This document shows, one piece after another, positions 27,097 to 58,485 of a stretch of DNA of 64,000 nucleotides (positions are counted from its first letter, which is position 1; each line of letters starts with the position of its first letter). Below the pieces are notes generated by a model. That model was given only the letters and a program-made list of their open reading frames with translations, was not told the DNA's origin and ran no database searches. Location: assembly GCA_964466315.1 (NCBI GenBank), contig CAYXNS010000002.1, positions 29,174 through 93,173 of the forward strand. The letters are read 5' to 3'. A program made the position numbers and the translations under genes. This stretch comes from an uncultured Gammaproteobacteria bacterium. GTDB taxonomy: Bacteria > Pseudomonadota > Gammaproteobacteria > Steroidobacterales > Rariloculaceae.

Positions 27097-27107
27097 GGAG
27101 CGGAGCC

Positions 27108-35348: not shown

Positions 35349-38300
35349 CAATTTATCGCTGCCGCGTAGGACTCGAGTCGTTCAAGAGTCCGCGATGCGT
35401 TGCGCAATACAATGGCGGCACGGGCGGGATCTCCGCCCGGTAGATCTCCTTGTAGATGGTTGATGACTGCACGGAGATTGCGCCTATTCGACTCCAGATC
35501 TTCCACCGGCAACCGGAAACCCTGAGTTTCGACGCGGTACAGATCGCCCTCGATATAGGACACGACGAAGCGAGCCGATTCGATCGCGAGATCGCTATCG
35601 TTTAAGCCAATAGCCGCCAATACGCGCAGCAAATATAGATCCCGGTGTGGGTTCAGGACGAGTGCCCGATCGATCAATCTGAGTGCATCGAAAGAGAAGC
35701 GCTCGCGGTCCGTTGACACGTTCACGCGCCATTCGGCGCGAAGTCGTACTACTTCGGTGTACCACACATCGGTTATACGAGATCTGCTCAGGATCGGGTC
35801 GAGTTGCGCCATCGCGGGATAGTTCCGCGAAGCGCCATAACCCCACCCCTCGACAACGGCCGCCGCAGTCTCTGACAAGCTGGCCGCGAGCGCCCTGGCT
35901 TCATCCGTTGCCGCGTCGGTGTTCAATGATGCGATTTGGTTTTTGATGAGTTGATAACGCGCCTGGTCGTTTGACGGATCGGCGGTGAGCGCGGCTTCGA
36001 AGGCCGCCGTCGCGCGCTCTGATTGCCCGGCCGAAAGATAGACGAAGCCGTATATCATAAGCTGATCCGAAACCCTCGGGTGGACTTCGGCGAGTGTTGC
36101 CGTTCTTGTCTGCTGCCCCAACCGTAGCATTCGTTGCGCGATGTAACCGAAATTCAAGTCGTCCGTCAGGCGGGTAAAAACCCAACTTCCGCGACGAGTT
36201 AACGGGTCGTACGGTAGGAAGATTCGGTTGAGATCGTCCAGATAGAGTCCGTCCGCGAGGCTGCGGCTCTGCGTCGCCATGAGATTGTTATCGTCAGTGC
36301 TGATTGGTGAGTCGGCGGCGAATTCTTCGACGCCTTCTTGATCCATCATGAGCGCAGCGAGCAAATCTTCGACGCTGTTCATTCCCATGCGGCTGTAGTG
36401 CATGATATCGGTCGTGAATGGTTGCCCCGTTCTTGCCGCCTGTAGTTCTACGTCCAGCGGCGCCTCCGATGCAAGAAACATCAGGACCTGGGCCGCAGGC
36501 TGGTATAGCCGGACATTGGGGTACTCGGCGAGCAGGGTTGCGGCCAACGTCCGTAACAGCGGCTCTTCTACGAACTCCGAGTTCATCCATTGGACGAATA
36601 CGCCCCCCTCATTGAGATGGCTCTTTACGTCCGCTACGAACTCTCGGGTGAATAAATGCGATGCGCCGGCCGTCCACGGATGTGAGGGTTGCGAAACGAT
36701 GAGGTCATAGGTCTTATTCGTCAGCCTCAGCGCGTTGCGGGCGTCATTAATGACGAGATTGATGCGTGGATCCTCGAGCGGGTCTTTGTTGCGTTTGCCC
36801 TGAAGTACTCGGTTTGCTTCGATGACCTCCGGCTCGAGTTCAATCGCGTCGATTGTCTGAATCGACGGTGGCACTCCTTCGAGTGCGACGCCGCCGCCGA
36901 AGCCGATGACGAGCATATCCTCGGCATCGGGGCGTGCGGCAACGGGCAGCGCCGTTAACCATTTCTCCGGATCTTGGACGGGGGGACCACCTTTGGCCAT
37001 TATCGAAGCTTCGGGCAGGCCGTTGGTACGAACGTAGTAATAACCCTCGTCGCTCAGCAGCATGACGGTGGATGAGCGACCGACGCTGTAGAAGAGTTCC
37101 TCGGGTTCCGTCAGATAACCCAGCACGAAGCCGGTACTCGAGATGACGGCCTGCGGACGAGCCGGATGGTAGGCCACGAGGATAATCAGCAGTCCGGCAG
37201 CGACCGCACCCGTATGCAGGCGTTTCGGCGGCGCGACGAAAGCGATCGTCCACAGAGCCAGTACGACGTTGACCGAGACAGCAAGCCGGATGGAGCCTTC
37301 GAAGCCGAGACCCGGGATCAAGAAGAAGCCGGCGAGTATAGCGCCCACGATTGCGCCAATCGTATTCCAGGTATAGATGCGCGCGGTTCCTGAACTTGCC
37401 TCCAGCTCGTCTCTGGCGATTATTCTTACGGCGAGAGGGAAGGTCGCACCGATAAATATCGTCGCCGGTAGCATAATGCTTACCGCATAGACGGCCAGCC
37501 GCTGTGTCGTCAACTCGTCGGGAATGAGGGCTCCCATCCATGCATAGACACCCATCGAGAGAATGGCGATGGCGATCTGGGTAACGGCGAACGCCAGCGC
37601 GGCACGCTGCCGATCTTCGGCAAATTTACCGGCCAGGCTACCGCCCAACGCTATACCGGTGAGGAACGCTGCGAGCATGGTGGCGAAAGCGTAGATGCTC
37701 CCTCCTAACACATGGGTCAGCATCCGCGTCCACAGAACCTCGTAGAAGAACGCATTGGCTCCGGAGAGCAGCATCAGGGGAAGTACCCAGCCGCGCTGCA
37801 TATTGAAGACTTGGTCGAGCCGCTCCGCAGCCGGTCGGCCGCCCTTCAACAGAGGTGCAATGCACGCTCCGACGAAACTGATGACGGGCCGAGTGGCCTC
37901 GCCGGCGCCTGCGGGTGATGTGAGAGCCGGCGCACGTTTGGCCAACAATGCAGCAATCCCGAATACGAGGGCGTTGATCGAAACGCCGATCCAGACTGTG
38001 CCGTTCAGACCCAGTGCCGGCAGCAGGACAAAACCGGCGAGTACCGTGCCGAGGACCGCGCCCGCCGTGTTGGTCGCGTACAGCAACGCTACTCGGGGGC
38101 CGATCTGCTCGTCGTTCGTGATCGCATGCCGTGTCAGCAATGGCAGCGTCGCACCCATGAAGCCCGTGGGTAATGCGAGGACGATAAATGCCACGATCAA
38201 ATAGAACATGGGTTGGCCGAATGTTGCCGCGTTGGGTGGAGCGGGTTGATCGCCGAGCGCGAGCGTGTAGAGCATCCTGGCGCCCGCTAGCAGCAGCGGT

Positions 38301-38695
38301 ACGGCTAGAGCGGATAGGGCGATTCCGGCCTCAAGCAGGCCGTAGACGAGAATCGGTCGCCGAACGCGGTTGATGTACCGTCCGGCGACAGCGGCGCCAG
38401 CGGCCAGGCCGCCCATGTAGGCCGCGAGGACTGCGACGACGGCGAGTTCGCTCGTGCCGAATACCAGCGAGAACTGTCGCAGCCAGGCGGTCTGATAAAG
38501 CAGAGCCGCGAAGCCGGAGAGGAAGAAACAGGCGACGACACCCGGAAGCACGAATGCTGAGGGCGCAGCGGGTTCAACCGGCGTGCCCGGGGTGACCTGT
38601 TGCCTTTTGCGTGATCGTCTCGTCATCGTCTTCAGCCTGTTTCCGCGCCTGGATTCCTCACCTGCGTGCCGGGTATCGCGCCAGGCCTGCGGCAT
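35348..38695 (-). CDS. fused polytopic membrane domain + spermidine-synthase-like domain + TPR-like C-terminal region
   Basis: About 500 aa of TM segments. Then MLVIGFGGGVALEG...IDAIELEPEVIEAN...LVINDARNAL...YDLIVSQPSHPWTAGASHLFTREF. The tail is helical and repeat-like. The start could instead be the MTRRSRK Met at 38626. Confidence 0.75.
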   Translation of the reverse strand: MPQAWRDTRHAGEESRRGNRLKTMTRRSRKRQQVTPGTPVEPAAPSAFVLPGVVACFFLSGFAALLYQTAWLRQFSLVFGTSELAVVAVLAAYMGGLAAGAAVAGRYINRVRRPILVYGLLEAGIALSALAVPLLLAGARMLYTLALGDQPAPPNAATFGQPMFYLIVAFIVLALPTGFMGATLPLLTRHAITNDEQIGPRVALLYATNTAGAVLGTVLAGFVLLPALGLNGTVWIGVSINALVFGIAALLAKRAPALTSPAGAGEATRPVISFVGACIAPLLKGGRPAAERLDQVFNMQRGWVLPLMLLSGANAFFYEVLWTRMLTHVLGGSIYAFATMLAAFLTGIALGGSLAGKFAEDRQRAALAFAVTQIAIAILSMGVYAWMGALIPDELTTQRLAVYAVSIMLPATIFIGATFPLAVRIIARDELEASSGTARIYTWNTIGAIVGAILAGFFLIPGLGFEGSIRLAVSVNVVLALWTIAFVAPPKRLHTGAVAAGLLIILVAYHPARPQAVISSTGFVLGYLTEPEELFYSVGRSSTVMLLSDEGYYYVRTNGLPEASIMAKGGPPVQDPEKWLTALPVAARPDAEDMLVIGFGGGVALEGVPPSIQTIDAIELEPEVIEANRVLQGKRNKDPLEDPRINLVINDARNALRLTNKTYDLIVSQPSHPWTAGASHLFTREFVADVKSHLNEGGVFVQWMNSEFVEEPLLRTLAATLLAEYPNVRLYQPAAQVLMFLASEAPLDVELQAARTGQPFTTDIMHYSRMGMNSVEDLLAALMMDQEGVEEFAADSPISTDDNNLMATQSRSLADGLYLDDLNRIFLPYDPLTRRGSWVFTRLTDDLNFGYIAQRMLRLGQQTRTATLAEVHPRVSDQLMIYGFVYLSAGQSERATAAFEAALTADPSNDQARYQLIKNQIASLNTDAATDEARALAASLSETAAAVVEGWGYGASRNYPAMAQLDPILSRSRITDVWYTEVVRLRAEWRVNVSTDRERFSFDALRLIDRALVLNPHRDLYLLRVLAAIGLNDSDLAIESARFVVSYIEGDLYRVETQGFRLPVEDLESNRRNLRAVINHLQGDLPGGDPARAAIVLRNASRTLERLESYAAAIN

Positions 38696-48125: not shown

Positions 48126-49484
48126 ATGGGGCTGTTGCTCAATTTAGCCTATCTCGTTGCAGTCATCTTGGCATCGCCGTGGTTGATCTATCGTCTTGTC
48201 CTGCGCGGCGATTGGCACGAACTCCCGGCGCGCTTTGGTTGGGGGCTGGGTTCGGGTCTCGAGGGTTCGATCTGGCTGCACGGCGCGTCGGCGGGAGAGA
48301 TCTCATTACTCGAGCCGCTCGTGAAACTCATCGAGCGGGATATGCCGACGACGCCACTCGTGATCTCGGCGTATTCCTCTACGGGCCTGGCCGCCGCTCG
48401 ACGGGCCTATCCCAGGCACCGCGTAATATTCTTCCCGTTCGATCTGACATTTATCGTTTCGCATTTCCTGTCATTCTTCGCCCCGCGCCTGATCGTAATC
48501 GTGGAGTCGGATTTCTGGCCGAATTTTCTTGCCGCTGCACAACGACTCGAGATATCGGTCGCGGTCATCAATGGCAAGATGTCCATGAAGTCCTTCGAGC
48601 GTAATGCGAAAATACATCTTCTGCCTATACTGTTACGTCGTATACTCTTGTTCGCCGTTCAGAGCCAGGAACATGCCGAGCGCCTGCGTCGACTCGGTGT
48701 GCCCGAAGAGCGACTCTGCGTTACGGGCAATATGAAATACGATCTGGTGCGGCCCCTGACCCCACTCGAGCAGGCGGCAGAGATCAGGTCGGCGCTCGGT
48801 TATCGCGACGGCGATGTCGTAGTGATCGGCGGAAGCGTGCACGAAAAAGAGGATGAGGCGCTGTTGGATGCATTCTTGGGCATGACAGCCCACGGTTCTC
48901 CGGGTGCTTTGATTCTCGTTCCGCGCTACCCGCGCGACGCTTACCGCATCGAACAAGCCGTTCGAGCGCGAGGTCAGCCCGCTGTCCTGAAAACCGCGGT
49001 CGACCGAGGTGAACAATCGCCGCCGGGGTCTCGTGGCGTTCTTATCGTCGATACGGTGGGCGAGCTACGCACACTTTACGAGGTAGCCGATATCGCGTTC
49101 GTGGGCGGCAGTCTGTTCAATCGCGGCAGTAATAAAGGCGGCCACAATCTGATGGAGCCGGCAATACTCGGGTTACCGATACTGTTCGGGCCCTATCATT
49201 TCAGCTTCAGAGAAACGGTTGAGGAACTACTTCGAGCCGACGCAGGAATCGAAGTTCAGGACGGCACCGAGTTGGAGGCGGCGTTGATTGCACTCGCCGG
49301 AAATCACGAACGGCGGCAGGATCTGGGTGGCCGCGCACACGACGTCGTGCTGCGTAGTCAGGGGGCGACGCAGAGGAACTACGAGCTGCTCATTCCCCTC
49401 TTGCACTCTGGCGGCGAGCGCTTGCCAGCCTCACCCTTTGAAAGCACAATGCCGCCAGCAGTCGGTGACACAGACTCTACATGA
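48126..49484 (+). CDS. waaA: 3-deoxy-D-manno-octulosonic acid transferase (GT30), divergent paralogue
   Basis: WLHGASAGEISLLEPLVKLI..., ESDFWPNF, VTGNMKYD and VGGSL are the GT30 N- and C-domain motifs. Confidence 0.75.
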   Translation: MGLLLNLAYLVAVILASPWLIYRLVLRGDWHELPARFGWGLGSGLEGSIWLHGASAGEISLLEPLVKLIERDMPTTPLVISAYSSTGLAAARRAYPRHRVIFFPFDLTFIVSHFLSFFAPRLIVIVESDFWPNFLAAAQRLEISVAVINGKMSMKSFERNAKIHLLPILLRRILLFAVQSQEHAERLRRLGVPEERLCVTGNMKYDLVRPLTPLEQAAEIRSALGYRDGDVVVIGGSVHEKEDEALLDAFLGMTAHGSPGALILVPRYPRDAYRIEQAVRARGQPAVLKTAVDRGEQSPPGSRGVLIVDTVGELRTLYEVADIAFVGGSLFNRGSNKGGHNLMEPAILGLPILFGPYHFSFRETVEELLRADAGIEVQDGTELEAALIALAGNHERRQDLGGRAHDVVLRSQGATQRNYELLIPLLHSGGERLPASPFESTMPPAVGDTDST

Positions 49485-50332
49485 CAAAAAGACACGTACA
49501 GATCGGCGACATCGATTGTGGCTCGGATCAGCTATTTCTGATATGTGGCCCGTGTGTAATCGAGGAAGAATCGCTCATGATGGCTACGGCAGAGCGGCTC
49601 AAAGACATTGCGGAAGAGCTCGACCTTCCCTTGGTTTTCAAGTCTTCTTTTTCTAAGGACAATCGAAGCTCGCTCGAGTATTACCAGGGGCCTGGTCTCG
49701 ATGAGGGCCTCAGGATTCTGGAGAGGATAAAGCAAGAGTTCGAGCTACCGCTGCTTACGGATATTCATTATCCGACCCAGGCGGCAACGGCGGCCGAAGT
49801 CGTCGATGTCGTTCAGATCCCGGCCTACCTCTGTATGCAGAGCGAGCTCGTCGTCGCCGCCGCCAAAACAGGCACGGTCGTTAATCTCAAACACGGTCAG
49901 TTTATCGCTCCGGATAACATGGCCAAACCCGTTAAGAAGATCGAAGCATCCGGAAATAACAGAATCTTGATGACGGAGCGCGGCTACACGTTCGGTTATA
50001 ACGATCTGATCGTCGACCCGAGAAGTTTTCTTCTACTGAATCGGATCGGATATCCGGTAGTTTTCGATATCACACACACGATCCGAAAATACGGAATCCC
50101 GAGCAAGGACCCCGAGGGTGGTGGCCGAGAGTATCTTTCGGTTCTCTCCAGGGCCGGAGTTGCGTCCGGTGTTGACGGAATCTTTATCGAAGCGCACCCG
50201 AACCCGCCCGATGCGCTGTGCGATGCTGCAAGTCAATATTACTTGGATCAACTGGCGGAGTTCGTGCGCCCCCTCTTGGACATTCATGCACTCGTTCGAG
50301 AGCAAGCGGCGAGAGCATCAAGCGTAGGATAG
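49481..50332 (+). CDS. kdsA: 3-deoxy-8-phosphooctulonate (Kdo8P) synthase, Cys-type (metal-dependent class)
   Basis: Collinear with E. coli KdsA as I recall it (FKSSFSKDNRSS, GPGLDEGL, DIHYPTQA, QIPAYL, FDITH, FIEAHPNP). GPCVIE has Cys where E. coli has Asn. The ATGA overlaps the waaA stop. Confidence 0.9.
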   Translation: MTKRHVQIGDIDCGSDQLFLICGPCVIEEESLMMATAERLKDIAEELDLPLVFKSSFSKDNRSSLEYYQGPGLDEGLRILERIKQEFELPLLTDIHYPTQAATAAEVVDVVQIPAYLCMQSELVVAAAKTGTVVNLKHGQFIAPDNMAKPVKKIEASGNNRILMTERGYTFGYNDLIVDPRSFLLLNRIGYPVVFDITHTIRKYGIPSKDPEGGGREYLSVLSRAGVASGVDGIFIEAHPNPPDALCDAASQYYLDQLAEFVRPLLDIHALVREQAARASSVG

Positions 50333-50335
50333 CAA

Positions 50336-51373
50336 ATGGATCTCTATTTAGACTCAGTAGATTTCAAGGAAATCGAACGAGCTTTCGAGTTTGGCTTTGT
50401 CAAAGGCCTGACGACGACACCGACGTTCATGCACCGTCACGGGATAACCGATATCGACGGTGCAATCGTCAGGCTTTCGGGTATGGTGCCGGAGTTACAG
50501 GTTGAAGCATTGGGCGATACGGTCGACGCGATTCTTGCCGAGGCGGACCGAATTCTCCAACTGCCTCTGAAAAAAGAGCCAGTCTTCAAGGTGCCAATCT
50601 CGAACGCGGGTGTGACGGCCTGCCAGCGGCTGACGGCGAAGGGCCATCGCGTCAATGTCCACCTGATCTACACGTTGAACCAGGCTTACATGGCGATAGA
50701 AGCCGGTGCTGCATTCGTGTGCCCGCTCGCCGGCCGGTTGCAGGACCAGGGCCATGATGCCGTGAAGCTATTCGAGCAGTGTGCAAAGATCATCGATAAG
50801 CACAACTATTCGAGCAAAGTGATGTTCTCGTCTGTCCGTCATCCCGAACACGTACGGCAGGCGCTACTTTCCGGAGCGCATGTCTGCACCGTGCCGTTCG
50901 GTGTTATGAATCACCTCTGCGATAATTCGCTGACTACCGTTGGTGCCGAGCAATTCCAGGAACACACGCGGCTCATGACGATGAGGGTCGGGGAACTCGT
51001 CCGGCCGCAAAACCCCATCTGCGAGTCCACCGAGACCCTGACGACGGCGATGGTCAAGATGACGGAGTCGCGTCTGGGCACCGTTACGCTCGTAGACGGA
51101 GAAGGCAAGGTTGCCGGAATATTCACCGACGGCGATCTGCGCCGTAGCTTGCAGGAGAATGGGCGCGAGATTCTGGATGAGACATTGGCCCAGATCGGTT
51201 TCTCGGAAAGTCCAGTAACGATCGGTCAAGGCGCATTGTTGGACGAAGCCGTCAAACTCTTCAAAGAGTTCGAGGTCGACAGCATTATCGTGGTCGACGG
51301 CGACAGGCCCTCCGGCGTGCTCGATATCCAGGACCTCGTAAAACTCGGACTTCTTGGTCAAGAACATCTCTAA
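50336..51373 (+). CDS. fusion protein: TalC/FSA-type (small transaldolase family) aldolase domain + KdsD/KpsF-type tandem CBS pair
   Basis: N-terminal ~215 aa: MDLYLDS, GLTTTPT, LQVEAL, VFKVPIS (Schiff-base Lys), NVHLIYTLNQAYMAIEAGAAFVCPLAGRL, SSVRHP. C-terminal ~120 aa: LGTVTLVDGEGKVAGIFTDGDLRR...SIIVVDGDRPSGVLDIQDLVKLG. Confidence 0.75.
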   Translation: MDLYLDSVDFKEIERAFEFGFVKGLTTTPTFMHRHGITDIDGAIVRLSGMVPELQVEALGDTVDAILAEADRILQLPLKKEPVFKVPISNAGVTACQRLTAKGHRVNVHLIYTLNQAYMAIEAGAAFVCPLAGRLQDQGHDAVKLFEQCAKIIDKHNYSSKVMFSSVRHPEHVRQALLSGAHVCTVPFGVMNHLCDNSLTTVGAEQFQEHTRLMTMRVGELVRPQNPICESTETLTTAMVKMTESRLGTVTLVDGEGKVAGIFTDGDLRRSLQENGREILDETLAQIGFSESPVTIGQGALLDEAVKLFKEFEVDSIIVVDGDRPSGVLDIQDLVKLGLLGQEHL

Positions 51374-52076
51374 TCACGATGCCAATTCGAGTGATTCTGG
51401 ACCGGCAGACCGGTTCAGAGAACTCGGCGGAACATTTCTGACTGACGCAGCGGAACTCTCGAAGCGCCTCGAGGCCGTTCGTGCCCTCGTATTCGACTGG
51501 GACGGCGTATTCAACCTTGGGGCCAAAGGGGAGGGCGCCAGCAGTGGCTTCAGTGAAGCCGATTCCATGGGAACCAACATGCTGCGCTACGGATTGTGGC
51601 GGCGCGACGGCGCTCTGCCGATCACGGCGATCGTCACTGGTGTGGACAACTCGACTGCCGAGAGCTTCGCGAAGCGCGAGCACTTTCATGCCATCTATCG
51701 CGGCGTCGCGAATAAAGGGGAGGCAATCGATAGGCTCCGTGCTACCTATCAATTGGAGACGACTCAGATCGCATGCATCTTCGACGACATCAACGATCTC
51801 GGTATGGCGGCGGAATGTGGGGTGCGGTTCCTAGTGCACCGCAGCTCGAGCCCGTTGCTGCGGGACTTTGTATCCCGGAACGACTACTGTGACTACATTA
51901 CGGCCGCGGAGGCGGACGAATTCGCCGTCCGCGAGTGCGTGGAGCTGATGTTGGGCGTTATGGGCGCATTCGATTCCGTCGTGCGGTCGAGGGCAGCTCA
52001 CGATGGTGATTACCAGCGTTACTTCAGTGCCCGCCAGGCGATAGAGACTCAGTTCATGAACGGACCGGAACCATAA
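51354..52076 (+). CDS. KdsC-like HAD-IIIA phosphatase with N- and C-terminal extensions (TTG start)
   Basis: HAD motifs LVFDWDGV (DxDG), AIVTG, ANKGEA, IFDDINDL and FAVRECVELML parallel KdsC. 240 aa versus ~180 for KdsC. Confidence 0.6.
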   Translation: MVKNISNHDANSSDSGPADRFRELGGTFLTDAAELSKRLEAVRALVFDWDGVFNLGAKGEGASSGFSEADSMGTNMLRYGLWRRDGALPITAIVTGVDNSTAESFAKREHFHAIYRGVANKGEAIDRLRATYQLETTQIACIFDDINDLGMAAECGVRFLVHRSSSPLLRDFVSRNDYCDYITAAEADEFAVRECVELMLGVMGAFDSVVRSRAAHDGDYQRYFSARQAIETQFMNGPEP

Positions 52077-52092: not shown

Positions 52093-53406
52093 ATGATGAT
52101 CTGGTCAATCGCCGTCTACTGTCTACTGCCGTTCGTGCTTTTCAATCTGCTCTGGCGCGGAGTCCGCTATCCTGCGTATTGGTTCCGCTGGCCCGAACGC
52201 TTCGGTTATCTCGACTCGATGCAGGGGCAGCGGGTCATCTGGATACATGCCGTGTCGGTCGGGGAGGTACGCTCATCGGCAGAGTTGGTCAACGAGCTAA
52301 CCAGCCGCTACCCGAACCATCGTATCCTCGTCACGACCATGACGCCGACGGGCTCGAAGCAGGTCCACGAGCTGTTTGGTGGTCGCGTCGGGCATGCTTA
52401 CGTGCCCTATGACTTTCCGGGTTCAGTGCGCCGCTTCATGAACAGAGTCGCGCCGGAGTTTGCGGTCGTCGCGGAAACTGAGTTCTGGCCGAATCTATTC
52501 AAGGCCTGCCAGGATCGACGCGTCCCGTTGTTTCTCGTAAACGTACGCTTGTCGCAGGAGTCCCTCAGGGGTTACTTGCGCGTTCCGCGCACGGCGCGTG
52601 CGATGATGGAACGGGCGACGCTTATCTGCGCTCAGACGAATAGCGATGCGCAGCGGCTCAAAAGCCTCGGCGTTTCACGGCCTCGCCTCGAGGTTACCGG
52701 TAACCTGAAGTTCGATGCCCCGTTGCCGGAAACGCTCTTGTCGGCGGCGGTAATCTTGCGGCAGCATTGGGGGGTTGATCGCCCGATTCTCCTAGCGGCG
52801 AGCACGCACGGCGGCGAAGAGCGCCGAATTCTCGTCGCTTTCCGTGTGCTCCGACAGGTCTATTCGGACCTCCTGCTTGTCGTCGTGCCGCGGCATCCCG
52901 AGCGATTTAACTCTGTCGCGCGGCTCTGCCGGCGGGCGGGTGTGGAGGTCGCGCTTCGCAGCCAGCATCGCGGCGACTTGCCGGCTGGGGTCGGCATCAT
53001 GGTTGGAGATACCATGGGCGAACTCCAGCACCTCTATGCTGCGGCGGATATCGCGTTCGTCGGCGGCAGCCTGGTCGGTATCGGGGGGCACAATCTACTG
53101 GAACCCTGTGCTGTCGGTGTGCCCGTGATCTTCGGCCCACATATGTTTCACTTCGAGGAAATAAGTTCGATGGTCATCGAGTGCGGTGCTGGCAGCCAGG
53201 TTTACGATGAGCATGGTCTTGTGGATAAAGTCGCGATGTATCTGGAGCAGCCTGCGTTGCGCAAGGCTGCGGGGCAGGCCGCTCGCCTGCTCGTGGCGGA
53301 GAATCGCGGTGCGGTTGAACGGACTATGCAGCTCATATCCGAGTCTCTGCGCTGGGAGAGTCCCGAGCGGGATGCTACGACCTCCGTATCGGCACTCCAT
53401 GATTGA
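52093..53406 (+). CDS. waaA: 3-deoxy-D-manno-octulosonic acid transferase (GT30), canonical-looking paralogue
   Basis: WIHAVSVGEVRSSAELVNEL, ETEFWPNL, VTGNLKFD, FVGGSLV. Confidence 0.85.
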   Translation: MMIWSIAVYCLLPFVLFNLLWRGVRYPAYWFRWPERFGYLDSMQGQRVIWIHAVSVGEVRSSAELVNELTSRYPNHRILVTTMTPTGSKQVHELFGGRVGHAYVPYDFPGSVRRFMNRVAPEFAVVAETEFWPNLFKACQDRRVPLFLVNVRLSQESLRGYLRVPRTARAMMERATLICAQTNSDAQRLKSLGVSRPRLEVTGNLKFDAPLPETLLSAAVILRQHWGVDRPILLAASTHGGEERRILVAFRVLRQVYSDLLLVVVPRHPERFNSVARLCRRAGVEVALRSQHRGDLPAGVGIMVGDTMGELQHLYAAADIAFVGGSLVGIGGHNLLEPCAVGVPVIFGPHMFHFEEISSMVIECGAGSQVYDEHGLVDKVAMYLEQPALRKAAGQAARLLVAENRGAVERTMQLISESLRWESPERDATTSVSALHD

Positions 53407-53409: not shown

Positions 53410-54270
53410 GTGCCATTGCGGCGAGCGTCGGCTTCGCGGACAACATACGGGTCAATACTTAGGTCGAGTGCTTTGAATCTCTGTCGTCATACCGCGTGCG
53501 TCGTTTTGTGTGCTGCCGCGCCGAACACTCACGCTTTCGGCTCTGATGGTCACCGCATCGCGGCGCTCATTGCAGAGCCGTATCTGTGTGCGGCGGCGAC
53601 GGTCGAGATCGATCGTCTCGGTAATGGTGATTATCTTACCGAGCTCGGCTTGTGGGCAGATCGGATCCGCACACTGCCGCCCTGGAATGACTCCGGGCCT
53701 TGGCACTATATGAATATCGCCGACGGGGACTTGCTCGAGAATTATCGATCTCCGCCGGAGGGAGATATTCTCTGGGCAATTGCGAACTTTCGCTCGCGTC
53801 TGGAGGATACCGGGCTTGCGAGGGAACGGCGCGGCGAAGCCTTGAGATTCCTGGTGCACTTCGTCGTGGATTTGCACCAGCCACTGCATGTGGGACGTGA
53901 CACAGACCGTGGCGGCAACACGATCGAAGTTTTTCTTGACCGGAAACGGATCACCCTCCACCGTTTCTGGGACACGGAAGCGATCGGCGCAGATGCGTTG
54001 CCGGTCGAACGGTTCCTGCGCAACGCGATGCCAACTGTCCGGCGACTTGCTGCTGGCCACCGGTCCAGCCCGGCGCGCCAGTGGGCGGCGGAGAGTCTCG
54101 CACTCCGCGACGTCGTCTACGCTTTCGACGCCGAGACACGGCAGCTCGACGAAAACTATCTCGAGATTGCCGCTGACGTCGTGCAAAAACGCTTAATACA
54201 GGCAGGTATACGCCTCGCCGATGAGCTCAATAGTGCGTTCTGCCCCGAGAGCGCTTCACTCAGTCCGTAG
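53410..54270 (+). CDS. S1/P1 nuclease family protein, exported (GTG start)
   Basis: AFGSDGHRIAA...WADRIR...GPWHYMNI...HFVVDLHQPLHVG...DRGGN...LHRFWD. Confidence 0.8.
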   Translation: MPLRRASASRTTYGSILRSSALNLCRHTACVVLCAAAPNTHAFGSDGHRIAALIAEPYLCAAATVEIDRLGNGDYLTELGLWADRIRTLPPWNDSGPWHYMNIADGDLLENYRSPPEGDILWAIANFRSRLEDTGLARERRGEALRFLVHFVVDLHQPLHVGRDTDRGGNTIEVFLDRKRITLHRFWDTEAIGADALPVERFLRNAMPTVRRLAAGHRSSPARQWAAESLALRDVVYAFDAETRQLDENYLEIAADVVQKRLIQAGIRLADELNSAFCPESASLSP

Positions 54271-55455
54271 CGCTTCCAACGGCTCCAGCACTGCAGCACG
54301 GTGTGCCGGAAGCACACCGGCGATCAATCCGATTACGATCGCAATCGCTTCAGCGAGTACGACGTAGCCGGGCGCGACGTCAGCAGGCATCGCGGGAATA
54401 ATCAGACGGACTACTGCCACGATGCTAAGACCGGCAGCCAGGCCGGCGAATCCGCCCATACCTGCGAGTAGGACAGCTTCGCCGAGGAATAGCTGCGAGA
54501 TGCGGTTTCGCTCGGCGCCGACCGCACGAAGAAGCCCGATCTCCGGCGTGCGTTCGCGCACCGCAATCGTCATGATCGTGAAGATGCCGACACCACCGAC
54601 CAGGAGCGAGATTCCGCCGAGCGCGGCGACGCCGAATGTCAGTACGCCGATGATGGACCCGAGCACATCGAGCATTTGTTGCTGACTGATGATCGTGAAG
54701 TCCTCGCCGCCATGACGCGCGAGCAGAATCCGCTCGATGCCGGCAATGACTTCGTCCACGGATGCGCCGTCGTCATAGAGAATATCGATCTCGTGTAGAC
54801 CTTCGCGGTTGAACAGCGCGAGACCGCTCGCGGCGGGTATGTAGATAGTGTCATCGAGATCGATTCCGAGCATATCGCCCTTTGACTCCATGACGCCGAC
54901 TACGCGGTAACGATCGCCGCCAACCCGGATTCTGTCATTGAGTGGATTGGCTGATCCATATAGCTCGGAGTAGACGAGTGACCCCAGAACGACGACGGCG
55001 CGCGGGCGCTCCAGATCATCTTCGGGCAGGAAACTACCGCGTGACACATTGAATTTGAACGCCCGGTCGAACTCCGGGCCCACGGCAAAAACATTGACCG
55101 TGCGTTCGCGCCCACGTGCTTCGACCGACGCGGCTCCCGAGACTGCGGGAACCGAGTGCAAGACATACGGGGCTCGCATTAGCGCTTCAGCATCCTGCAG
55201 GCTCAGAGGTCTGACCGAGTTGAATACGCCGGCGGAGATCCCGAGCGTATTCGCTTTGCCGGGCTGTATCCCGATCGTGTTAGTTCCGAACTGAGTGAAC
55301 TGTTCGACGATGTACCTATTGACGCCCACACCGATTGATGTCAGCGACACGACTGCCATGACGCCGATACCGATCCCCAATGCCGTCAAACCACTGCGCA
55401 TGCGATGCGCCAGCACCGATTGGGCCGTGAAAAGAACGATGTCTCTAGCGAGCAT
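54256..55455 (-). CDS. ABC transporter permease (MacB-type periplasmic domain + FtsX)
   Basis: N-terminal TM, large periplasmic domain, and C-terminal FtsX-like helices (IGLLRAVGAERNRI). Confidence 0.8.
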   Translation of the reverse strand: MLARDIVLFTAQSVLAHRMRSGLTALGIGIGVMAVVSLTSIGVGVNRYIVEQFTQFGTNTIGIQPGKANTLGISAGVFNSVRPLSLQDAEALMRAPYVLHSVPAVSGAASVEARGRERTVNVFAVGPEFDRAFKFNVSRGSFLPEDDLERPRAVVVLGSLVYSELYGSANPLNDRIRVGGDRYRVVGVMESKGDMLGIDLDDTIYIPAASGLALFNREGLHEIDILYDDGASVDEVIAGIERILLARHGGEDFTIISQQQMLDVLGSIIGVLTFGVAALGGISLLVGGVGIFTIMTIAVRERTPEIGLLRAVGAERNRISQLFLGEAVLLAGMGGFAGLAAGLSIVAVVRLIIPAMPADVAPGYVVLAEAIAIVIGLIAGVLPAHRAAVLEPLEALRTE

Positions 55456-55461
55456 GATTAG

Positions 55462-56673
55462 TTATCGCCCCGTGAGAGCCAGCACCGGGTCGAGGTAGGC
55501 GGCACGGCGTGCCGGTAGAATACTGAATAGCAGCCCACTCGCCACTGCGATGCTCACGGCTGCCACCATGGCCCAGGTGGGCGCCGCGAAGTCGAGTATT
55601 GGGAAGACGACACTCATTAGCGCCGCCCCGGCGTTGCCAATAAGTAGCCCCAGCAGTGCGCCGACGAATGACAGGTAGACGGCTTCGGTCAGAAACAGGA
55701 TGACGATATGGCGTCGTTTCGCGCCCAGCGCCCTCAGCAGCCCGATCTCTCTGGTGCGTTGACTGACGGCAACGAGCATCACGTTCATGATCAGGACACC
55801 AGCGACGAACAGACTGATTGCCGCGATGCCGGCCAATCCCATGGTGATCATGTCGAATATCGATTCGAACGTCGAGAGCACGGCGTCCTGGGTAACGACG
55901 GTGATGTCTTCCTCGCCCTGGTGACGGGCTTTGATGATCTCGATGATGTCCCGCCGCGCCGGTTGTATGGCTTCCTGGCTGACGGCTTCGGCCAGGATCC
56001 GGAATATACCGGGCGCGTTGAAGAGCTGCTGCGCGCTCGCGACGGGCAGGATGACCAACTCATCGGTGTTGAACGGTCCGGTGATGCCCGCTTGGGCCAA
56101 CACACCGGTCACACGGCAGCGTGTGTCGCCGATACGCAGCCATTGACCGAGCGGATCCGTACTGCCGAAGAACTCCGTACGGACGACGCTGCCCATCACG
56201 CACACGGGTGTCGCGACGTCCATGTCGATCTCCGGCAGGAAACGGCCGAGCTGCATCGTCCAATGTTGGACCTCAAGCATTTCTGTCGTCGTGCCGAGCA
56301 CGGTGATCTCTCGCTCACGCTCGCGCCACGATGCGTTGCCGCTGCCGACGACTACGGGCGCCACCTGCGCGATGCGCGGGCTGCGCTCGACGGCCATAGC
56401 GTCATCGAGGGTCAGGTCTCGGGCGGTCTCGCCGATAATCATGCCCGTGCCCCCGCCGCCGGCCGTCTCCGCTTTACCGGGTAGTACCACCAATAGATGA
56501 GTGCCCAGGGCGGCGAATTCGCCCGTAACGTAACGGCGTGCGCCTTCGCCGACCGCCGTCAACAACACAACCGCGGTGACGCCGATCGAGACCGCCAGCA
56601 GCAGCATGGACGTCCGCAGCGGGTAACGCCGGATCGCCTGAAATGCAAGTTTTGAGGTATCGAATGGTTTCAT
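55462..56673 (-). CDS. ABC transporter permease (MacB-type periplasmic domain + FtsX), second copy
   Basis: Same architecture (IGLLRALGAKRRHI). Confidence 0.8.
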   Translation of the reverse strand: MKPFDTSKLAFQAIRRYPLRTSMLLLAVSIGVTAVVLLTAVGEGARRYVTGEFAALGTHLLVVLPGKAETAGGGGTGMIIGETARDLTLDDAMAVERSPRIAQVAPVVVGSGNASWREREREITVLGTTTEMLEVQHWTMQLGRFLPEIDMDVATPVCVMGSVVRTEFFGSTDPLGQWLRIGDTRCRVTGVLAQAGITGPFNTDELVILPVASAQQLFNAPGIFRILAEAVSQEAIQPARRDIIEIIKARHQGEEDITVVTQDAVLSTFESIFDMITMGLAGIAAISLFVAGVLIMNVMLVAVSQRTREIGLLRALGAKRRHIVILFLTEAVYLSFVGALLGLLIGNAGAALMSVVFPILDFAAPTWAMVAAVSIAVASGLLFSILPARRAAYLDPVLALTGR

Positions 56674-57350
56674 CGCGCTGCTGCACTGTCGTCTTTGATG
56701 ATTTTTCCGTCCTGCATCAGTAGATGACGGTGAGCTCGTCGCCCGATGTCCGGGTCGTGGGTAACGACCATGAGGCTGATTCCATCCCGATTTAGTTGTT
56801 CGATGATCTCGATGACCTCGCCGCTGGATCGAGAGTCCAGATTACCGGTCGGCTCATCGGCCAGGAGTAAACCGGGTTTCATGACGATCGCGCGTCCGAT
56901 CGCGACGCGCTGCCGCTCGCCGCCGGAGAGTTGATCAGGCCGATGACCCAGCCGGGACCCGAGGCCCACCGACTCGAGCACTTCGCGCGCGCGTTCCCGG
57001 CGTGCTGCGACAGGTGTCCCCGCCAGTAGCAGCGGCAACTCCACATTCTCGAGCGCGCTCAATCGAGGTATCAGATGAAAAGACTGAAATATAAAGCCGA
57101 TATGCTGCTGACGTTGTTCGGCCAATGCGTTGTCGTCGAGACTGGAGACGTCCGCGTCGTCGAGCCAGTAAGTTCCTGAGGTGGCGCGGTCCAAAAGCCC
57201 CAAGATATTCAATAGCGTGGATTTACCGGATCCCGACGGCCCCATGACGGATATGTATTCGCCGGGCGCGATCTCGAGATCGGCGTGATCCAAAGCGTGC
57301 ACGACCTGGTCCCCAACCTGGAAATCGCGGCAGAGGCTCTCCAGCCGCAT
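56670..57350 (-). CDS. ABC transporter ATP-binding protein (MacB/LolD-like)
   Basis: Walker A GPSGSGKST, signature LSGGERQR, Walker B LLLADEPT. The ATG at 57350 (MRLESL...) is preferred to 57383. Confidence 0.9.
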   Translation of the reverse strand: MRLESLCRDFQVGDQVVHALDHADLEIAPGEYISVMGPSGSGKSTLLNILGLLDRATSGTYWLDDADVSSLDDNALAEQRQQHIGFIFQSFHLIPRLSALENVELPLLLAGTPVAARRERAREVLESVGLGSRLGHRPDQLSGGERQRVAIGRAIVMKPGLLLADEPTGNLDSRSSGEVIEIIEQLNRDGISLMVVTHDPDIGRRAHRHLLMQDGKIIKDDSAAAR

Positions 57351-57357
57351 TATTGAG

Positions 57358-58485
57358 TTACTCGAGGCTGGCTGCAGCGCCATCCTCTACACCTTCGCGA
57401 TCGATGAAGCTAACTACGTGCTCGCCAGCGCGTAGGCCCCGAGTAATCGCGGTGTATTCCCAGTTCGAGATCCCGGCTTCGATCTCGCGAAGCTCGAGCC
57501 GGCCGAGCGTCTCGTCGTAGACGTAGACCTGATTCCCATCCACAATCACCGAAGTCGGCACGCGCACGGCGTCATCCTCGCTGGCGAGCAGAATTTCGAC
57601 GTCGGCGCTGTAGCCGGGCAGCAATTCGCCCTTGTCGGGATCGTCGATCTCGGCCTCGATCTCGACGGTGCGCGCCTGTTTCTCGATGTCCAGCACATAG
57701 GGGGCAATGCGCCTGACATGCCCGGAGAAGGTTCGCTCGGAAAAAGCGTCGAGACTGATACGGGCGGGAAGGCCTTCTCGCACGGCCGGTGCGTCCACCT
57801 CATCGATCGGTGCGCTGATGTAGAGGCAGCTCGAGTCGATCAGATCGACCGTCGGAGGCGTCGGGATACCCACGGGCGAAGGCGTCACGAATTCACCGAG
57901 TTCGCCGTTGATCTCGGCAATGACCCCCGGGAACGGTGCGTAGAGCTGTGTGCGCTCCAATGCGGCTTCCGTTACTTCGATTCTCGCCACGGCGACACGA
58001 GCGCTGGCTTCCGCGGCTGTGCAGGCCGCGGCACTGGACTCGGCGATGCCGACGGCACGATCGGTGTCCTCTTCAGATGCCAGCCCGTCTTCGAGGAGCG
58101 TCATCAGGCGGTTAGCTTCTCGCCGGGCAAAATCGGCGATGATACAGGCCTCACCGGCACGAGACTCGGCTGCCGTCGCATCCTGCTCCACAAGGCGTAG
58201 CTCGGCCCGGATATCGTCATTCCATAGCTCGAGAAGAAGTTGCCCTGCATCGACCTTGTCGCCGTTCGCGACCGGTAGCTGCACGATCTGTCCACCAACA
58301 GCCGGTGAGAGGCCAGCCCGCCGACACGCATCGACCGTCCCGGCTCGCGTGTTGCTTACGGTCGCGGATACTGGGCCTCGCTCGACGGTGAAGATGCCGA
58401 CCGAGATGGGCTTCGGCCGCGTGAAGTACCATCCCCCCGCGGCGACAGCGACGACTAAACTGATGATGATGGCGAATCGTTTCAT
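57358..58485 (-). CDS. efflux periplasmic adaptor (HlyD/MacA-like MFP)
   Basis: N-terminal anchor, biotinyl-lipoyl-like and coiled-coil regions, beta-barrel (APFPGVIAEI). Confidence 0.8.
   Translation of the reverse strand: MKRFAIIISLVVAVAAGGWYFTRPKPISVGIFTVERGPVSATVSNTRAGTVDACRRAGLSPAVGGQIVQLPVANGDKVDAGQLLLELWNDDIRAELRLVEQDATAAESRAGEACIIADFARREANRLMTLLEDGLASEEDTDRAVGIAESSAAACTAAEASARVAVARIEVTEAALERTQLYAPFPGVIAEINGELGEFVTPSPVGIPTPPTVDLIDSSCLYISAPIDEVDAPAVREGLPARISLDAFSERTFSGHVRRIAPYVLDIEKQARTVEIEAEIDDPDKGELLPGYSADVEILLASEDDAVRVPTSVIVDGNQVYVYDETLGRLELREIEAGISNWEYTAITRGLRAGEHVVSFIDREGVEDGAAASLE

What the first reader, a model, noticed from the sequence alone, without database searches (positions are those of the whole stretch)
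50336..51373. Aldolase-for-isomerase domain swap in a Kdo operon: TalC/FSA-type aldolase fused to a KdsD-type CBS pair
**Established:** Kdo synthesis starts with arabinose-5-phosphate isomerase KdsD/KpsF/GutQ, which is a SIS domain followed by a tandem CBS pair. The next steps are KdsA, KdsC, KdsB and WaaA.

**Seen here:** the gene between kdsA and a kdsC-like phosphatase has a C-terminal CBS pair with what I recall as the KdsD signature (AGIFTDGDLRR; GVLDIQDLVKLG). The SIS domain is absent. In its place is a ~215-aa small-transaldolase/fructose-6-phosphate-aldolase fold:
- LYLD Asp.
- Schiff-base Lys in VFKVP.
- Glu in LQVEAL, as in TalC-type enzymes.
- SSVRHP.

Two positions that are normally conserved differ: TTNP reads TTTP, and P(F/Y)VGR reads PLAGR. 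Packing is operon-tight. The first waaA and kdsA overlap in ATGA, a 3-nt gap separates kdsA from the fusion gene, and the fusion gene overlaps the kdsC-like gene by 20 nt.

**Inference:** the fusion may supply arabinose-5-P (or a related KdsA substrate) by aldol chemistry rather than by isomerising ribulose-5-P. E. coli FSA is reported to interconvert glycolaldehyde + glyceraldehyde-3-P and arabinose-5-P in vitro. The fusion would keep the KdsD regulatory module. Alternatively it is a CBS-regulated transaldolase that tunes pentose-phosphate supply for this operon. I do not know of a described enzyme with this architecture and context.
Basis: partly seen in the sequence, partly recalled or inferred. 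Interest (0 to 1): 0.8.

Follow-up and report, generated by a model that had tools for sequence, protein, structure and literature searches.

The report
Aldolase-like substitute in Kdo sugar pathway
In the operon that makes the essential outer-membrane sugar Kdo, the gene slot normally held by the first pathway enzyme (the isomerase KdsD) holds a transaldolase-type enzyme with a rewired active site joined to KdsD's regulatory tail, and this arrangement recurs in very different microbes, which points to an undescribed way of making the Kdo precursor arabinose-5-phosphate.

Summary
ORF 50336..51373 (+, 345 aa) is a TAL/FSA barrel (Pfam E 3e-34; AF2 pLDDT 92; TM 0.94 to T. maritima TalC) fused to a CBS pair that matches KpsF/KdsD/GutQ best. 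There is no SIS domain.

Four coupled substitutions (T109H, S129C, F131L, A165S) define a separate "His-type" class, distinct from transaldolases (Glu/Thr/Phe) and from FSA (Gln/Thr/Tyr). Three of the four lie on residues reported to set reaction type and donor choice. Asp6, Glu57, Lys85 and the phosphate site are kept.

In 104 non-redundant loci (872 kb), kdsA is directly adjacent in 69 of 72 evaluable cases and within one gene in 71 of 72. A KdsC-like phosphatase follows in 67 of 80. No SIS isomerase was found. Relatives of 36-55% identity lie in kdsB-kdsA-X-kdsC, kdsC-X-kdsA and X-kdsA arrangements. Named sources include Bacteroidota, Nitrospirota, Spirochaetales and archaeal-labelled MAGs.

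Best reading: it supplies arabinose-5-phosphate to KdsA in KdsD's place (about 0.65-0.7). The chemistry is unresolved: glycolaldehyde + G3P aldol addition (about 0.38) or pentose-phosphate epimerisation/isomerisation (about 0.28).

I could not test whether canonical kdsD is absent genome-wide. I found no prior description.

The parts
48126..49484 (+). waaA1: divergent Kdo-transferase paralogue and first gene of the operon
   Evidence: Pfam Glycos_transf_N, E 1e-47. NCBIfam lipid IVA Kdo transferase, 279 bits, below the cutoff of 438. Present upstream of kdsA in most related loci.
49481..50332 (+). kdsA: 3-deoxy-8-phosphooctulonate (Kdo8P) synthase, the enzyme that consumes arabinose-5-phosphate
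   Evidence: NF003543 scores 335 bits (cutoff 242) and TIGR01362 scores 320 bits (cutoff 314). ATGA overlap with waaA1. Directly adjacent to the fusion in 69 of 72 evaluable loci.
50336..51373 (+). The fusion gene (345 aa): His-type TAL/FSA barrel plus KdsD-type CBS pair
   Evidence: It is 76-93% identical across Rariloculaceae-type genome loci, about as conserved as KdsA.
50336..50971 (+). TAL/FSA (beta/alpha)8 barrel domain, residues 1-212
   Evidence: Pfam PF00923 at residues 3-207, E 3e-34. Foldseek against 1VPX: target-normalised TM 0.94, rmsd 1.5 A. TIGR00875 scores 146 bits, below the cutoff of 246.
50588..50590 (+). Codon AAG = Lys85, the predicted Schiff-base lysine (VFKVP)
   Evidence: Aligned with Lys85 of E. 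coli FsaA and with the lysine of 1VPX and 3R8R. Invariant in 27 fusions down to 29% identity.
50660..50662 (+). Codon CAC = His109, replacing the catalytic-water Thr of the N-x-T motif
   Evidence: Invariant in the His-type class. Thr109 is part of the Q59-T109-Y131 water site of FSA (PMC13259622).
50720..50728 (+). Codons TGC CCG CTC = Cys129-Pro130-Leu131, replacing S/A-P-F/Y
   Evidence: Position 129 sets donor preference, and position 131 (TalB F178) switches transaldolase to aldolase (PMC3962226).
50972..51370 (+). CBS pair of KpsF/KdsD/GutQ type, residues 213-345, with GIFTDGDLRR and GVLDIQDL motifs
   Evidence: Pfam CBS x2, E 2e-15. Best NCBIfam hits are KpsF, KdsD and GutQ. Best PDB CBS hits are A5P-isomerase CBS pairs. 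tblastn with E. coli KdsD matches only this part.
51354..52076 (+). kdsC-like HAD phosphatase (240 aa, divergent); putative Kdo8P phosphatase
   Evidence: NF007019 KdsC, 44 bits (cutoff 208), and TIGR01670, 38 bits. Directly downstream of the fusion in 67 of 80 evaluable loci. 20-nt overlap, TTG start.
52093..53406 (+). waaA2: canonical lipid IVA Kdo transferase
   Evidence: NF004388 scores 493 bits, above the cutoff of 438. Conserved downstream.

Best explanation
The gene encodes the enzyme that feeds D-arabinose-5-phosphate (A5P) to KdsA. It is a non-homologous stand-in for the SIS-type isomerase KdsD/KpsF.

Shown:
1. It is a small-transaldolase/FSA barrel. It keeps the Schiff-base lysine (Lys85), Asp6, Glu57, Asn107 and the phosphate-binding Arg134/Ser166/Arg168.
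2. It carries four coupled, invariant changes (T109H, S129C, F131L, A165S). Three of them lie on the positions reported to hold the catalytic water and to shape the donor pocket.
3. Its C-terminus is a KdsD-type CBS pair.
4. In distant lineages it sits beside kdsA, together with kdsC, kdsB and waaA. In those cassettes the only Kdo step without a gene is the A5P-forming one.

Inferred mechanism:
1. Lys85 forms an imine with a two-carbon aldehyde unit (glycolaldehyde). Equivalently, it forms an imine with C1 of A5P, which is fructose-6-phosphate without its C1 hydroxymethyl group.
2. The remodelled donor pocket (Cys129, Leu131, His109) is proposed to suit this smaller donor better than dihydroxyacetone.
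3. A Glu57-His109 pair takes over the proton-relay role that Tyr131 and water play in FSA.
4. D-glyceraldehyde-3-phosphate is held by the unchanged phosphate site.
5. C-C bond formation yields A5P. KdsA then pulls it irreversibly towards Kdo8P, KdsC dephosphorylates that, and WaaA transfers the Kdo.
6. The CBS pair probably carries over whatever ligand sensing or oligomerisation it performs in KdsD.

My estimates: the protein supplies A5P for Kdo, about 0.65-0.7. It does so specifically by net glycolaldehyde + G3P aldol addition, about 0.38.
For: Fold and residues.

A distinct class: the signature D-TT[TN]-E-K-N-H-C-x-L-R-SS-R is found in all 122 proteins tabulated and in every intact fusion. 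Canonical TalC reads N-T-S-P-F / AS and FSA reads L-T-A-P-Y / AS. In an NJ tree the His-type sequences group apart from the canonical/FSA cluster.

Roles of the changed positions:
- Q59/T109/Y131 hold the catalytic water, and swapping these residues interconverts FSA and TalB activities. Asp6 and Asn28 contact the donor. Position 129 is in the donor pocket (PMC13259622).
- A129S in FSA and S176A in TalB shift donor preference. F178Y turns TalB into an aldolase. R181 binds the phosphate (PMC3962226).

Context:
- 104 non-redundant loci, 872 kb. kdsA is directly adjacent in 69 of 72 evaluable loci and within one gene in 71 of 72. A kdsC-like gene is adjacent in 67 of 80. There are no SIS hits.
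- Independent gene orders occur in distant relatives: kdsB-kdsA-X-HAD (P0132, 38% identity); kdsC-X-kdsA (P0128); X-kdsA ... kdsB (P0147); kdsA-rSAM-X (P0139); and kdsB-kdsA followed by a CBS-less His-type protein (P0125).
- The fusion is as conserved as KdsA and more conserved than either WaaA or the KdsC-like protein.

Precedent for the chemistry:
- E. coli FsaA acts as an "Ara5P aldolase", making Ara5P from glycolaldehyde and GA3P (PMC9947464).
- In engineered P. putida given labelled ethylene glycol, about half of the KDO was M+2. Aldolase-made Ara5P therefore does reach Kdo in vivo (PMC13550131).
Against: - No biochemical data exist for any member of this class.
- Free glycolaldehyde is not a central metabolite. 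No glycolaldehyde-generating gene is linked in any of the loci or in the 64-kb window. That is awkward for a housekeeping LPS pathway kept across whole families.
The fusion could therefore be auxiliary.
- The structure tools return no coordinates, so the placement of His109, Cys129 and Leu131 relative to Lys85 rests on homology, not on measured geometry.
- Asn107 is transaldolase-like rather than FSA-like (FSA has Leu).
- Solo His-type genes on short contigs are not all seen next to kdsA.
Confidence: 0.38

Rival explanations
1. The pathway role is the same (A5P supply in KdsD's place), but the substrate is an abundant pentose phosphate and no free glycolaldehyde is involved. There are three possible forms:
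(a) R5P to A5P 2-epimerisation on the Lys85 imine, by removing and re-adding the C2 proton with His109, Glu57 or Cys129 as acid/base.
(b) The same epimerisation by retro-aldol cleavage and re-addition of a Lys-bound two-carbon unit that is never released.
(c) Ru5P to A5P enediol isomerisation using a Glu57/His109/Lys85 set.
For: - Metabolic logic. The cassettes contain only kdsA, X, kdsC, kdsB and waaA, with no glycolaldehyde source. A replacement kept under strong purifying selection in whole lineages is expected to draw on central metabolites.
- The new invariant residues are His and Cys. From general enzymology (my own knowledge), both are residues that often act as carbon acid/base catalysts.
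- Glu57 stays transaldolase-like. From my own knowledge, transaldolases characteristically hold on to their bound fragment rather than releasing it.
- TalB F178Y is reported to give D-ribose-5-phosphate as a by-product from glycolaldehyde + GA3P (PMC9947464). TAL-family active sites can therefore form both C2 epimers.
Against: - I know of no epimerase or isomerase in the TAL/FSA family, and the searches found none.
- Ru5P isomerisation cannot go through a Lys imine, because it would end in a stable Heyns-type adduct. Form (c) therefore needs the nucleophilic lysine to stay idle.
- The full aldol machinery (Asp6, Glu57, Lys85) and the pocket for the donor hydroxyl (Asp6, Thr26, Asn/Thr28) are kept, which fits a stereospecific aldolase.
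Confidence: 0.28
2. It is an accessory, CBS-regulated transaldolase or F6P aldolase that works on ordinary substrates (F6P, S7P, E4P, G3P) to balance pentose-phosphate supply for the operon. A canonical KdsD elsewhere in the genome makes the A5P.
For: - It belongs to the TAL/FSA family and keeps Glu57, Lys85, Asp6, Asn107 and the phosphate site.
- Absence of kdsD from the genome was not shown.
- Capsule loci of other bacteria carry extra copies of Kdo-pathway genes (my own knowledge of E. coli kpsF and kpsU).
Against: - Two of the three residues of the water-holding triad and the donor-pocket residue differ from every characterised transaldolase and FSA, and they are invariant.
- It scores below the TalC/FSA equivalog cutoff: 146 bits against 246.
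- Canonical TalC proteins never carry the CBS pair in the 150 representatives examined.
- Near-absolute adjacency to kdsA across phyla is not expected for a general pentose-phosphate enzyme.
- No SIS gene accompanies it in 872 kb.
Confidence: 0.12
3. It makes or edits a different sugar phosphate, giving a non-A5P substrate for a KdsA-like synthase or a modified octulosonic acid. Alternatively it consumes A5P, so the product is a Kdo variant rather than Kdo.
For: - Distant members sit in polysaccharide loci with radical SAM/SPASM enzymes, a second cytidylyltransferase, an HpcH/HpaI aldolase, a 2-hydroxyacid dehydrogenase and methyltransferases.
- The window operon has a second, divergent WaaA.
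Against: - In the window's clade KdsA passes both KDO8P-synthase equivalog cutoffs and WaaA2 passes the lipid IVA Kdo-transferase cutoff.
- The operon there has no tailoring genes.
- The KdsD-type CBS pair points to the A5P step.
Confidence: 0.12

Closest known systems
Small (subfamily 4) transaldolases, TalC-type: T. maritima TM0295 (1VPX), B. subtilis Tal (3R8R), T. acidophilum Tal (3S0C)
   Same: Same fold: target-normalised TM 0.90-0.94, rmsd 1.4-1.9 A, about 28-32% identity. Same Asp6, Glu57, Lys85, Asn107, Arg134, Ser166 and Arg168.
   Different: His for the water-holding Thr, Cys for Ser129, Leu for Phe131 and Ser for Ala165. Carries a C-terminal CBS pair. Sits in Kdo operons rather than pentose-phosphate contexts. 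Scores below the NCBIfam equivalog cutoff.
Fructose-6-phosphate aldolase FsaA/FsaB of E. coli (1L6W), also used as an "arabinose-5-phosphate aldolase"
   Same: Same family and the same Schiff-base lysine. FsaA makes A5P from glycolaldehyde + G3P (PMC9947464), which is the reaction proposed here. Both depart from the transaldolase triad.
   Different: FSA uses Gln59/Thr109/Tyr131, Leu107, Ala129 and Lys168. This protein has Glu57/His109/Leu131, Asn107, Cys129 and Arg168. It is only about 23-26% identical to FsaA. No dedicated physiological role in Kdo synthesis is known for FSA (my own knowledge).
Arabinose-5-phosphate isomerase KdsD / KpsF / GutQ (SIS domain plus CBS pair)
   Same: The same CBS pair type, including the GIFTDGDLRR motif. 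The same operon neighbourhood next to kdsC and kdsA. Presumably the same pathway step.
   Different: The catalytic SIS domain is completely absent and a non-homologous (beta/alpha)8 barrel takes its place. The CBS pair is only about 27-32% identical to that of E. coli KdsD. Isomerase activity is untested.
Sulfofructose transaldolase SF-TAL (8BC3, 8C4I)
   Same: A precedent for a small-transaldolase subfamily recruited to a specialised pathway with altered substrate specificity. It appears among the PDB sequence hits (E 4e-18) and the fold hits.
   Different: A different pathway (sulfoquinovose degradation) and a different substrate, with no CBS fusion. I did not examine its active-site signature here.

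Membership tests
TAL/FSA superfamily (Pfam PF00923, class I aldolase barrel) | Profile match above the curated threshold | tested here: met
   PF00923 at 119 bits against a cutoff of 27, E 3e-34, residues 3-207.
TAL/FSA superfamily (Pfam PF00923, class I aldolase barrel) | (beta/alpha)8 fold superimposable on solved small transaldolases | tested here: met
   AF2 model with pLDDT 92.3. Foldseek against 1VPX, 3R8R and 3S0C: target-normalised TM 0.90-0.94, rmsd 1.4-1.9 A.
TAL/FSA superfamily (Pfam PF00923, class I aldolase barrel) | Schiff-base Lys on strand 4, plus Asp6 and the Arg/Ser/Arg phosphate site | tested here: met
   Lys85, Asp6, Arg134, Ser166 and Arg168 align with those of FsaA and TalC and are invariant in 27 fusions. 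Covalent catalysis itself is not testable here.
Canonical transaldolase (TalC-type, EC 2.2.1.2) | Glu / Thr / Phe catalytic-water triad and Ser in the donor pocket (N-x-T ... S-P-F) | tested here: not met
   Glu57 is present, but Thr is replaced by His109, Phe by Leu131 and Ser by Cys129. TIGR00875 scores 146 bits against a cutoff of 246.
Fructose-6-phosphate aldolase (FSA, EC 4.1.2.-) | Gln59 / Thr109 / Tyr131 triad with Leu107 and Ala129 | tested here: not met
   The window protein has Glu57, His109, Leu131, Asn107 and Cys129. The FSA models NF009299 and NF009296 score far below their cutoffs.
Arabinose-5-phosphate isomerase KdsD/KpsF/GutQ | N-terminal SIS (sugar isomerase) catalytic domain | tested here: not met
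   No PF01380 hit. tblastn with E. coli KdsD residues 1-195 finds nothing in the window or in 104 related loci. The KpsF, KdsD and GutQ models match only their C-terminal regions and score below cutoff.
Arabinose-5-phosphate isomerase KdsD/KpsF/GutQ | C-terminal tandem CBS pair of the KdsD type | tested here: met
   Pfam CBS x2. Best NCBIfam and PDB CBS matches are A5P isomerases. GIFTDGDLRR is identical to E. coli KdsD.
Arabinose-5-phosphate isomerase KdsD/KpsF/GutQ | Interconverts Ru5P and A5P; complements a kdsD gutQ mutant | not testable with these tools
   Requires enzyme assays or genetics.
Kdo biosynthesis operon component | Conserved co-location with kdsA, kdsC, kdsB and waaA across lineages | tested here: met
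   kdsA is adjacent in 69 of 72 evaluable loci and within one gene in 71 of 72. A kdsC-like gene is adjacent in 67 of 80. kdsB is nearby in at least 10 loci. Several different gene orders occur in relatives of 36-55% identity.
Kdo biosynthesis operon component | It is the only A5P source (no SIS-type isomerase in the same genome) | not tested
No SIS was found in the 872 kb examined.

The most novel reading that the evidence does not exclude
Whole lineages make the universal LPS sugar Kdo without the SIS-type isomerase KdsD. These include Rariloculaceae-type Gammaproteobacteria, many Bacteroidota such as Chitinophagaceae, and other bacterial and possibly archaeal groups. They would instead obtain arabinose-5-phosphate from a previously unrecognised third catalytic class of the transaldolase/FSA family (Glu-His-Leu-Cys). 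That class would be either a natural glycolaldehyde + G3P "A5P aldolase" (a natural counterpart of the reaction used in synthetic glycolaldehyde-assimilation pathways) or the first R5P/A5P 2-epimerase working through a lysine imine.
Probability: 0.5. Interest if true: 0.85.

Novelty: new variant of a known kind. Interest (0 to 1): 0.74.

Why it matters
- **LPS biology.** KdsD is treated as the obligatory first step of Kdo and LPS synthesis and as an antibacterial target. A widespread non-homologous replacement would change pathway reconstruction. Automated annotation would score these genomes as lacking the step while calling this gene a "transaldolase" or "CBS protein". It would also limit the target's generality.
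- **Enzymology.** The transaldolase-versus-aldolase distinction is currently explained by two states of a three-residue water site (Glu/Thr/Phe and Gln/Thr/Tyr). This class is a third natural state, Glu/His/Leu with Cys129, and its reaction is directly testable.
- **Biotechnology.** If it is a dedicated A5P aldolase, it is a ready-made natural catalyst for glycolaldehyde and ethylene-glycol assimilation routes that now rely on the promiscuous E. coli FsaA. If it is an epimerase or isomerase, it is new chemistry on a class I aldolase scaffold.
- **CBS function.** Keeping the KdsD-type CBS pair on an unrelated catalytic domain offers a natural experiment on what that still poorly understood module senses.

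Tried and rejected
1. Whole-genome test for a canonical kdsD. This was not possible. Only local absence is shown: the window, and 872 kb of loci.
2. Literature on the host clade. "Rariloculus" returned 0 papers. "Rariloculaceae" returned 2 unrelated community surveys. No KO tables could be mined.
3. The cyanophage paper that matched A5P + FSA + Kdo. It lists TalC and KdsA/KdsB separately, so the match is incidental.
4. AFDB fold search for named carriers. The library is not installed. The cluster-member look-up gave only generic names.
5. Active-site geometry. The structure tools return no coordinates, so geometry rests on alignment to solved structures.
6. Could the 686-aa KdsA homologue next to a distant fusion hide a SIS domain? 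No. Its C-terminal extension has no Pfam hit.
7. Could the ORF be a frameshift or mis-assembly joining two genes? Rejected. The same 334-350-aa fusion is present in hundreds of independent contigs, and the linker is modelled with confidence.
8. Rejected, because both N and T occur within the His-type class.
9. Ru5P to A5P isomerisation through a Lys imine. Rejected on chemical grounds, because the Heyns-type product would stay covalently bound. Only a non-covalent enediol route remains for that substrate.
10. Solo His-type contexts (P0155, P0165, P0175, P0152). The contigs are too short to be decisive. Two show a KdsB-like cytidylyltransferase downstream.
Full report
**1.

- ORF 50336..51373 (+) encodes 345 aa.
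- Pfam finds TAL_FSA at residues 3-207 (E 3.1e-34) and two CBS domains (E 2e-15). There is no SIS domain.
- In NCBIfam the N-terminal part matches the fsa/talC/mipB model at 146 bits, below its cutoff of 246. The C-terminal part matches only the C-terminal regions of KpsF (57 bits), KdsD (52 bits) and GutQ (36 bits), well ahead of any other CBS family.
- Against the PDB, the barrel matches small transaldolases (1VPX, 3R8R, 1WX0, 3S0C). The CBS pair matches the solved CBS pairs of A5P isomerases best (4O9K, 3FNA, 3K2V).
- An AlphaFold2 model is confident (mean pLDDT 92.3). It superimposes on T. maritima TalC with target-normalised TM 0.94 and rmsd about 1.5 A.
- Neighbours: a divergent WaaA; a KdsA that passes the equivalog cutoffs; a weak KdsC-like HAD phosphatase; a canonical WaaA; and an S1/P1 nuclease.

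**2.

I aligned the protein with E. coli FsaA, canonical TalC proteins and distant homologues. The residues at positions 6, 26-28, 57, 85, 107, 109, 129-131, 134, 165-166 and 168 fall into three classes:

| Class | Signature |
|---|---|
| Canonical TalC | D-TTN-E-K-N-T-SPF-R-AS-R |
| FSA | D-TTN-Q-K-L-T-APY-R-AS-K |
| Window protein and every intact CBS fusion | D-TT[T/N]-E-K-N-**H**-**C**x**L**-R-**S**S-R |

- The four changes (T109H, S129C, F131L, A165S) are coupled.
- His109, Cys129 and Leu131 are invariant in fusions down to 29% identity. They are present in all 122 proteins tabulated in a second survey.
- In an NJ tree of the barrel domain, the His-type sequences group apart from the canonical/FSA cluster. 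CBS-fused and CBS-less members are interspersed.
- According to the literature, Q59/T109/Y131 of FSA hold the catalytic water. [quoted passage not shown] Asp6 and Asn28 contact the donor (PMC13259622).
- Position 129 (A129S in FSA, S176A in TalB) sets donor preference. F178Y turns TalB into an aldolase. R181 binds the phosphate (PMC3962226).
- So the half of the site that handles the donor and the proton relay is rewired, while the Schiff-base lysine, Asp6, Glu57 and the phosphate/acceptor site are untouched.

**3. Linkage to Kdo genes is near-absolute and phylogenetically broad**

- Eighteen genome loci from Ca. Rariloculaceae and unclassified gammaproteobacterial MAGs share the order waaA1-kdsA-fusion-kdsC-like-waaA2.
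- In those loci the fusion is 76-93% identical. That is about as conserved as KdsA and much more conserved than WaaA1 or the KdsC-like protein.
- A metagenome scan with the His-type signature region confirmed 572 loci, of which the 80 best were kept.
- Over 104 non-redundant loci (872 kb): kdsA is directly adjacent in 69 of 72 evaluable cases and within one gene in 71 of 72. A kdsC-like gene follows in 67 of 80. kdsB is nearby in at least ten. tblastn with the E. coli KdsD SIS domain finds nothing.
- The single exception (L031) belongs to a nested branch that has lost Lys85, Asp6 and His109. That branch is probably a set of pseudoenzymes.
- Distant members repeat the association in different gene orders:
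  - kdsB-kdsA-fusion-HAD phosphatase inside a polysaccharide locus (P0132, 38% identity).
  - kdsC-fusion-kdsA (P0128).
  - fusion-kdsA ... kdsB (P0147).
  - kdsA-radical SAM-fusion (P0139).
  - kdsB-kdsA followed by a CBS-less His-type protein (P0125).
- Named sources include Taibaiella, Flavipsychrobacter, Raineya, Chitinophagaceae, Nitrospirota, Spirochaetales, and MAGs labelled Thermoplasmatota and Helarchaeota. The Bacteroidota proteins are 53-55% identical to the window protein.
- In these cassettes every Kdo step (KdsA, KdsC, KdsB, WaaA) has a gene except the A5P-forming step. The one extra gene carries KdsD's CBS pair.

**4. How it most likely works**

Shown: the fold, the retained class I aldolase residues, the rewired triad and donor pocket, the KdsD-type CBS pair, and the conserved placement beside kdsA.

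Inferred: the protein supplies A5P to KdsA. I put this at about 0.65-0.7.

- A5P is fructose-6-phosphate without its C1 hydroxymethyl group, with the same stereochemistry. Its C1-to-phosphate distance equals the C2-to-phosphate distance of F6P. An unchanged phosphate site combined with a remodelled donor pocket is what one would expect for an enzyme specialised on A5P.
- The only reaction with direct precedent is the aldol addition of glycolaldehyde to G3P. E. coli FsaA does this, and the papers call it an "Ara5P aldolase" (PMC9947464). In engineered P. putida, about half of the KDO carried two labelled carbons from ethylene glycol. Aldolase-made A5P therefore does reach Kdo in vivo (PMC13550131).
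- I therefore take this as the leading mechanism, at about 0.38. In it, a Glu57-His109 pair plays the proton-relay role that Tyr131 and water play in FSA.
- Its weakness is metabolic. Glycolaldehyde is scarce, and no gene that would produce it is linked in any locus or in the window.

The main rival, at about 0.28, keeps the same pathway role but starts from R5P or Ru5P.

- One form is epimerisation at C2 on the lysine imine, either by proton exchange or by retro-aldol cleavage and re-addition without releasing the two-carbon unit.
- The other form is a non-covalent enediol isomerisation.
- The reported R5P by-product of TalB F178Y shows that TAL-family sites can form both C2 epimers.

Lesser rivals are an accessory CBS-regulated transaldolase (about 0.12) and an enzyme for a different or modified sugar (about 0.12).

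**5. Comparison with known families**

- It is a member of the TAL/FSA superfamily by profile, fold and catalytic lysine.
- It is not a canonical transaldolase: the Thr/Phe/Ser features are not met and it scores below the equivalog cutoff.
- It is not an FSA: the Gln/Tyr/Leu/Ala features are not met.
- It is not a KdsD/KpsF/GutQ isomerase: there is no SIS domain. It shares only the CBS pair.
- It may work like FSA in FSA's A5P-aldolase mode, and it sits where KdsD sits.
- Whether TAL replaced SIS inside a kdsD gene is unknown. The CBS pair is only about 27-32% identical to that of E. coli KdsD, and fused and solo forms are interspersed in the tree.

**6. Novelty and limits**

- Four full-text searches found no description of this architecture or role.
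- Public names are "transaldolase family protein", "CBS domain-containing protein" and "TalC/MipB family F6P aldolase".
- I rate it a new variant of a known kind: a third catalytic class of the TAL/FSA family, recruited to the first step of Kdo synthesis.
- The main untested point is whether carrier genomes truly lack a SIS-type A5P isomerase. Only local absence is shown.
- The chemistry needs experiments. The decisive ones are listed under next steps.

Noticed in passing
window 48126-49484 and 52093-53406: Two WaaA (Kdo transferase) paralogues, only about 31-35% identical to each other, bracket the operon. Only the second passes the NCBIfam lipid IVA Kdo-transferase cutoff. Both are conserved in most related loci, which suggests two distinct Kdo-transfer steps or acceptors.
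   Followed up: partly
window 51354-52076; loci L007, L038-L040, L053, L073, L081: The kdsC-like HAD phosphatase is very divergent: 44 bits against a KdsC cutoff of 208, 240 aa against 188 aa in E. coli, and a TTG as its only candidate start. It is missing in several relatives, where waaA2 follows the fusion directly.
   Followed up: partly
P0130, P0133, P0141, P0154; locus L031 1434-2438: A branch of TAL+CBS fusions nested inside the His-type class has lost Lys85 (now Arg or Ser), Asp6 (now Glu), His109, Cys129 and Arg134, but keeps a well-conserved KdsD-like CBS pair. Its one readable locus has a peptidase M61 gene upstream and no kdsA. It is possibly a pseudoenzyme or regulator.
   Followed up: partly
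L025 4179-5108, L028 7061-8035, L030 6987-7940, L114 1-408: Radical SAM/SPASM genes recur next to distant His-type TAL genes in polysaccharide loci. Other neighbours are a second cytidylyltransferase, an HpcH/HpaI aldolase, 2-hydroxyacid dehydrogenases and methyltransferases. This hints at a modified ulosonic-acid pathway in those lineages.
   Followed up: no
L030 4913-6973: The KdsA homologue next to a distant fusion is 686 aa. Residues 1-232 match DAHP_synth_1, and the C-terminal ~450 residues have no Pfam hit.
   Followed up: partly
P0301, P0320; L025: Fusions occur in MAGs labelled Candidatus Thermoplasmatota and Candidatus Helarchaeota. P0301 is 89% identical to P0132, whose locus is kdsB-kdsA-fusion-HAD. 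Either archaea carry Kdo-type cassettes or the bins are contaminated.
   Followed up: no
window 53410-54270 and 54256-57383: An S1/P1-type nuclease gene directly follows waaA2 and is conserved there in many relatives. A LolCDE-like ABC system (two FtsX-type permeases plus an ATPase) lies convergent to it.
   Followed up: partly
window 20745-28097: There is a cluster of two molybdenum-hydroxylase large subunits (800 and 820 aa, xanthine/CO-dehydrogenase type) with a 2Fe-2S subunit and an FAD subunit. It is unrelated to the finding.
   Followed up: no
window 35348-38695 (-): A 1115-aa protein whose only Pfam match is a spermine/spermidine-synthase domain in its middle (residues 580-721). It is flanked by a methyltransferase and a trypsin-like PDZ protease.
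   Followed up: no
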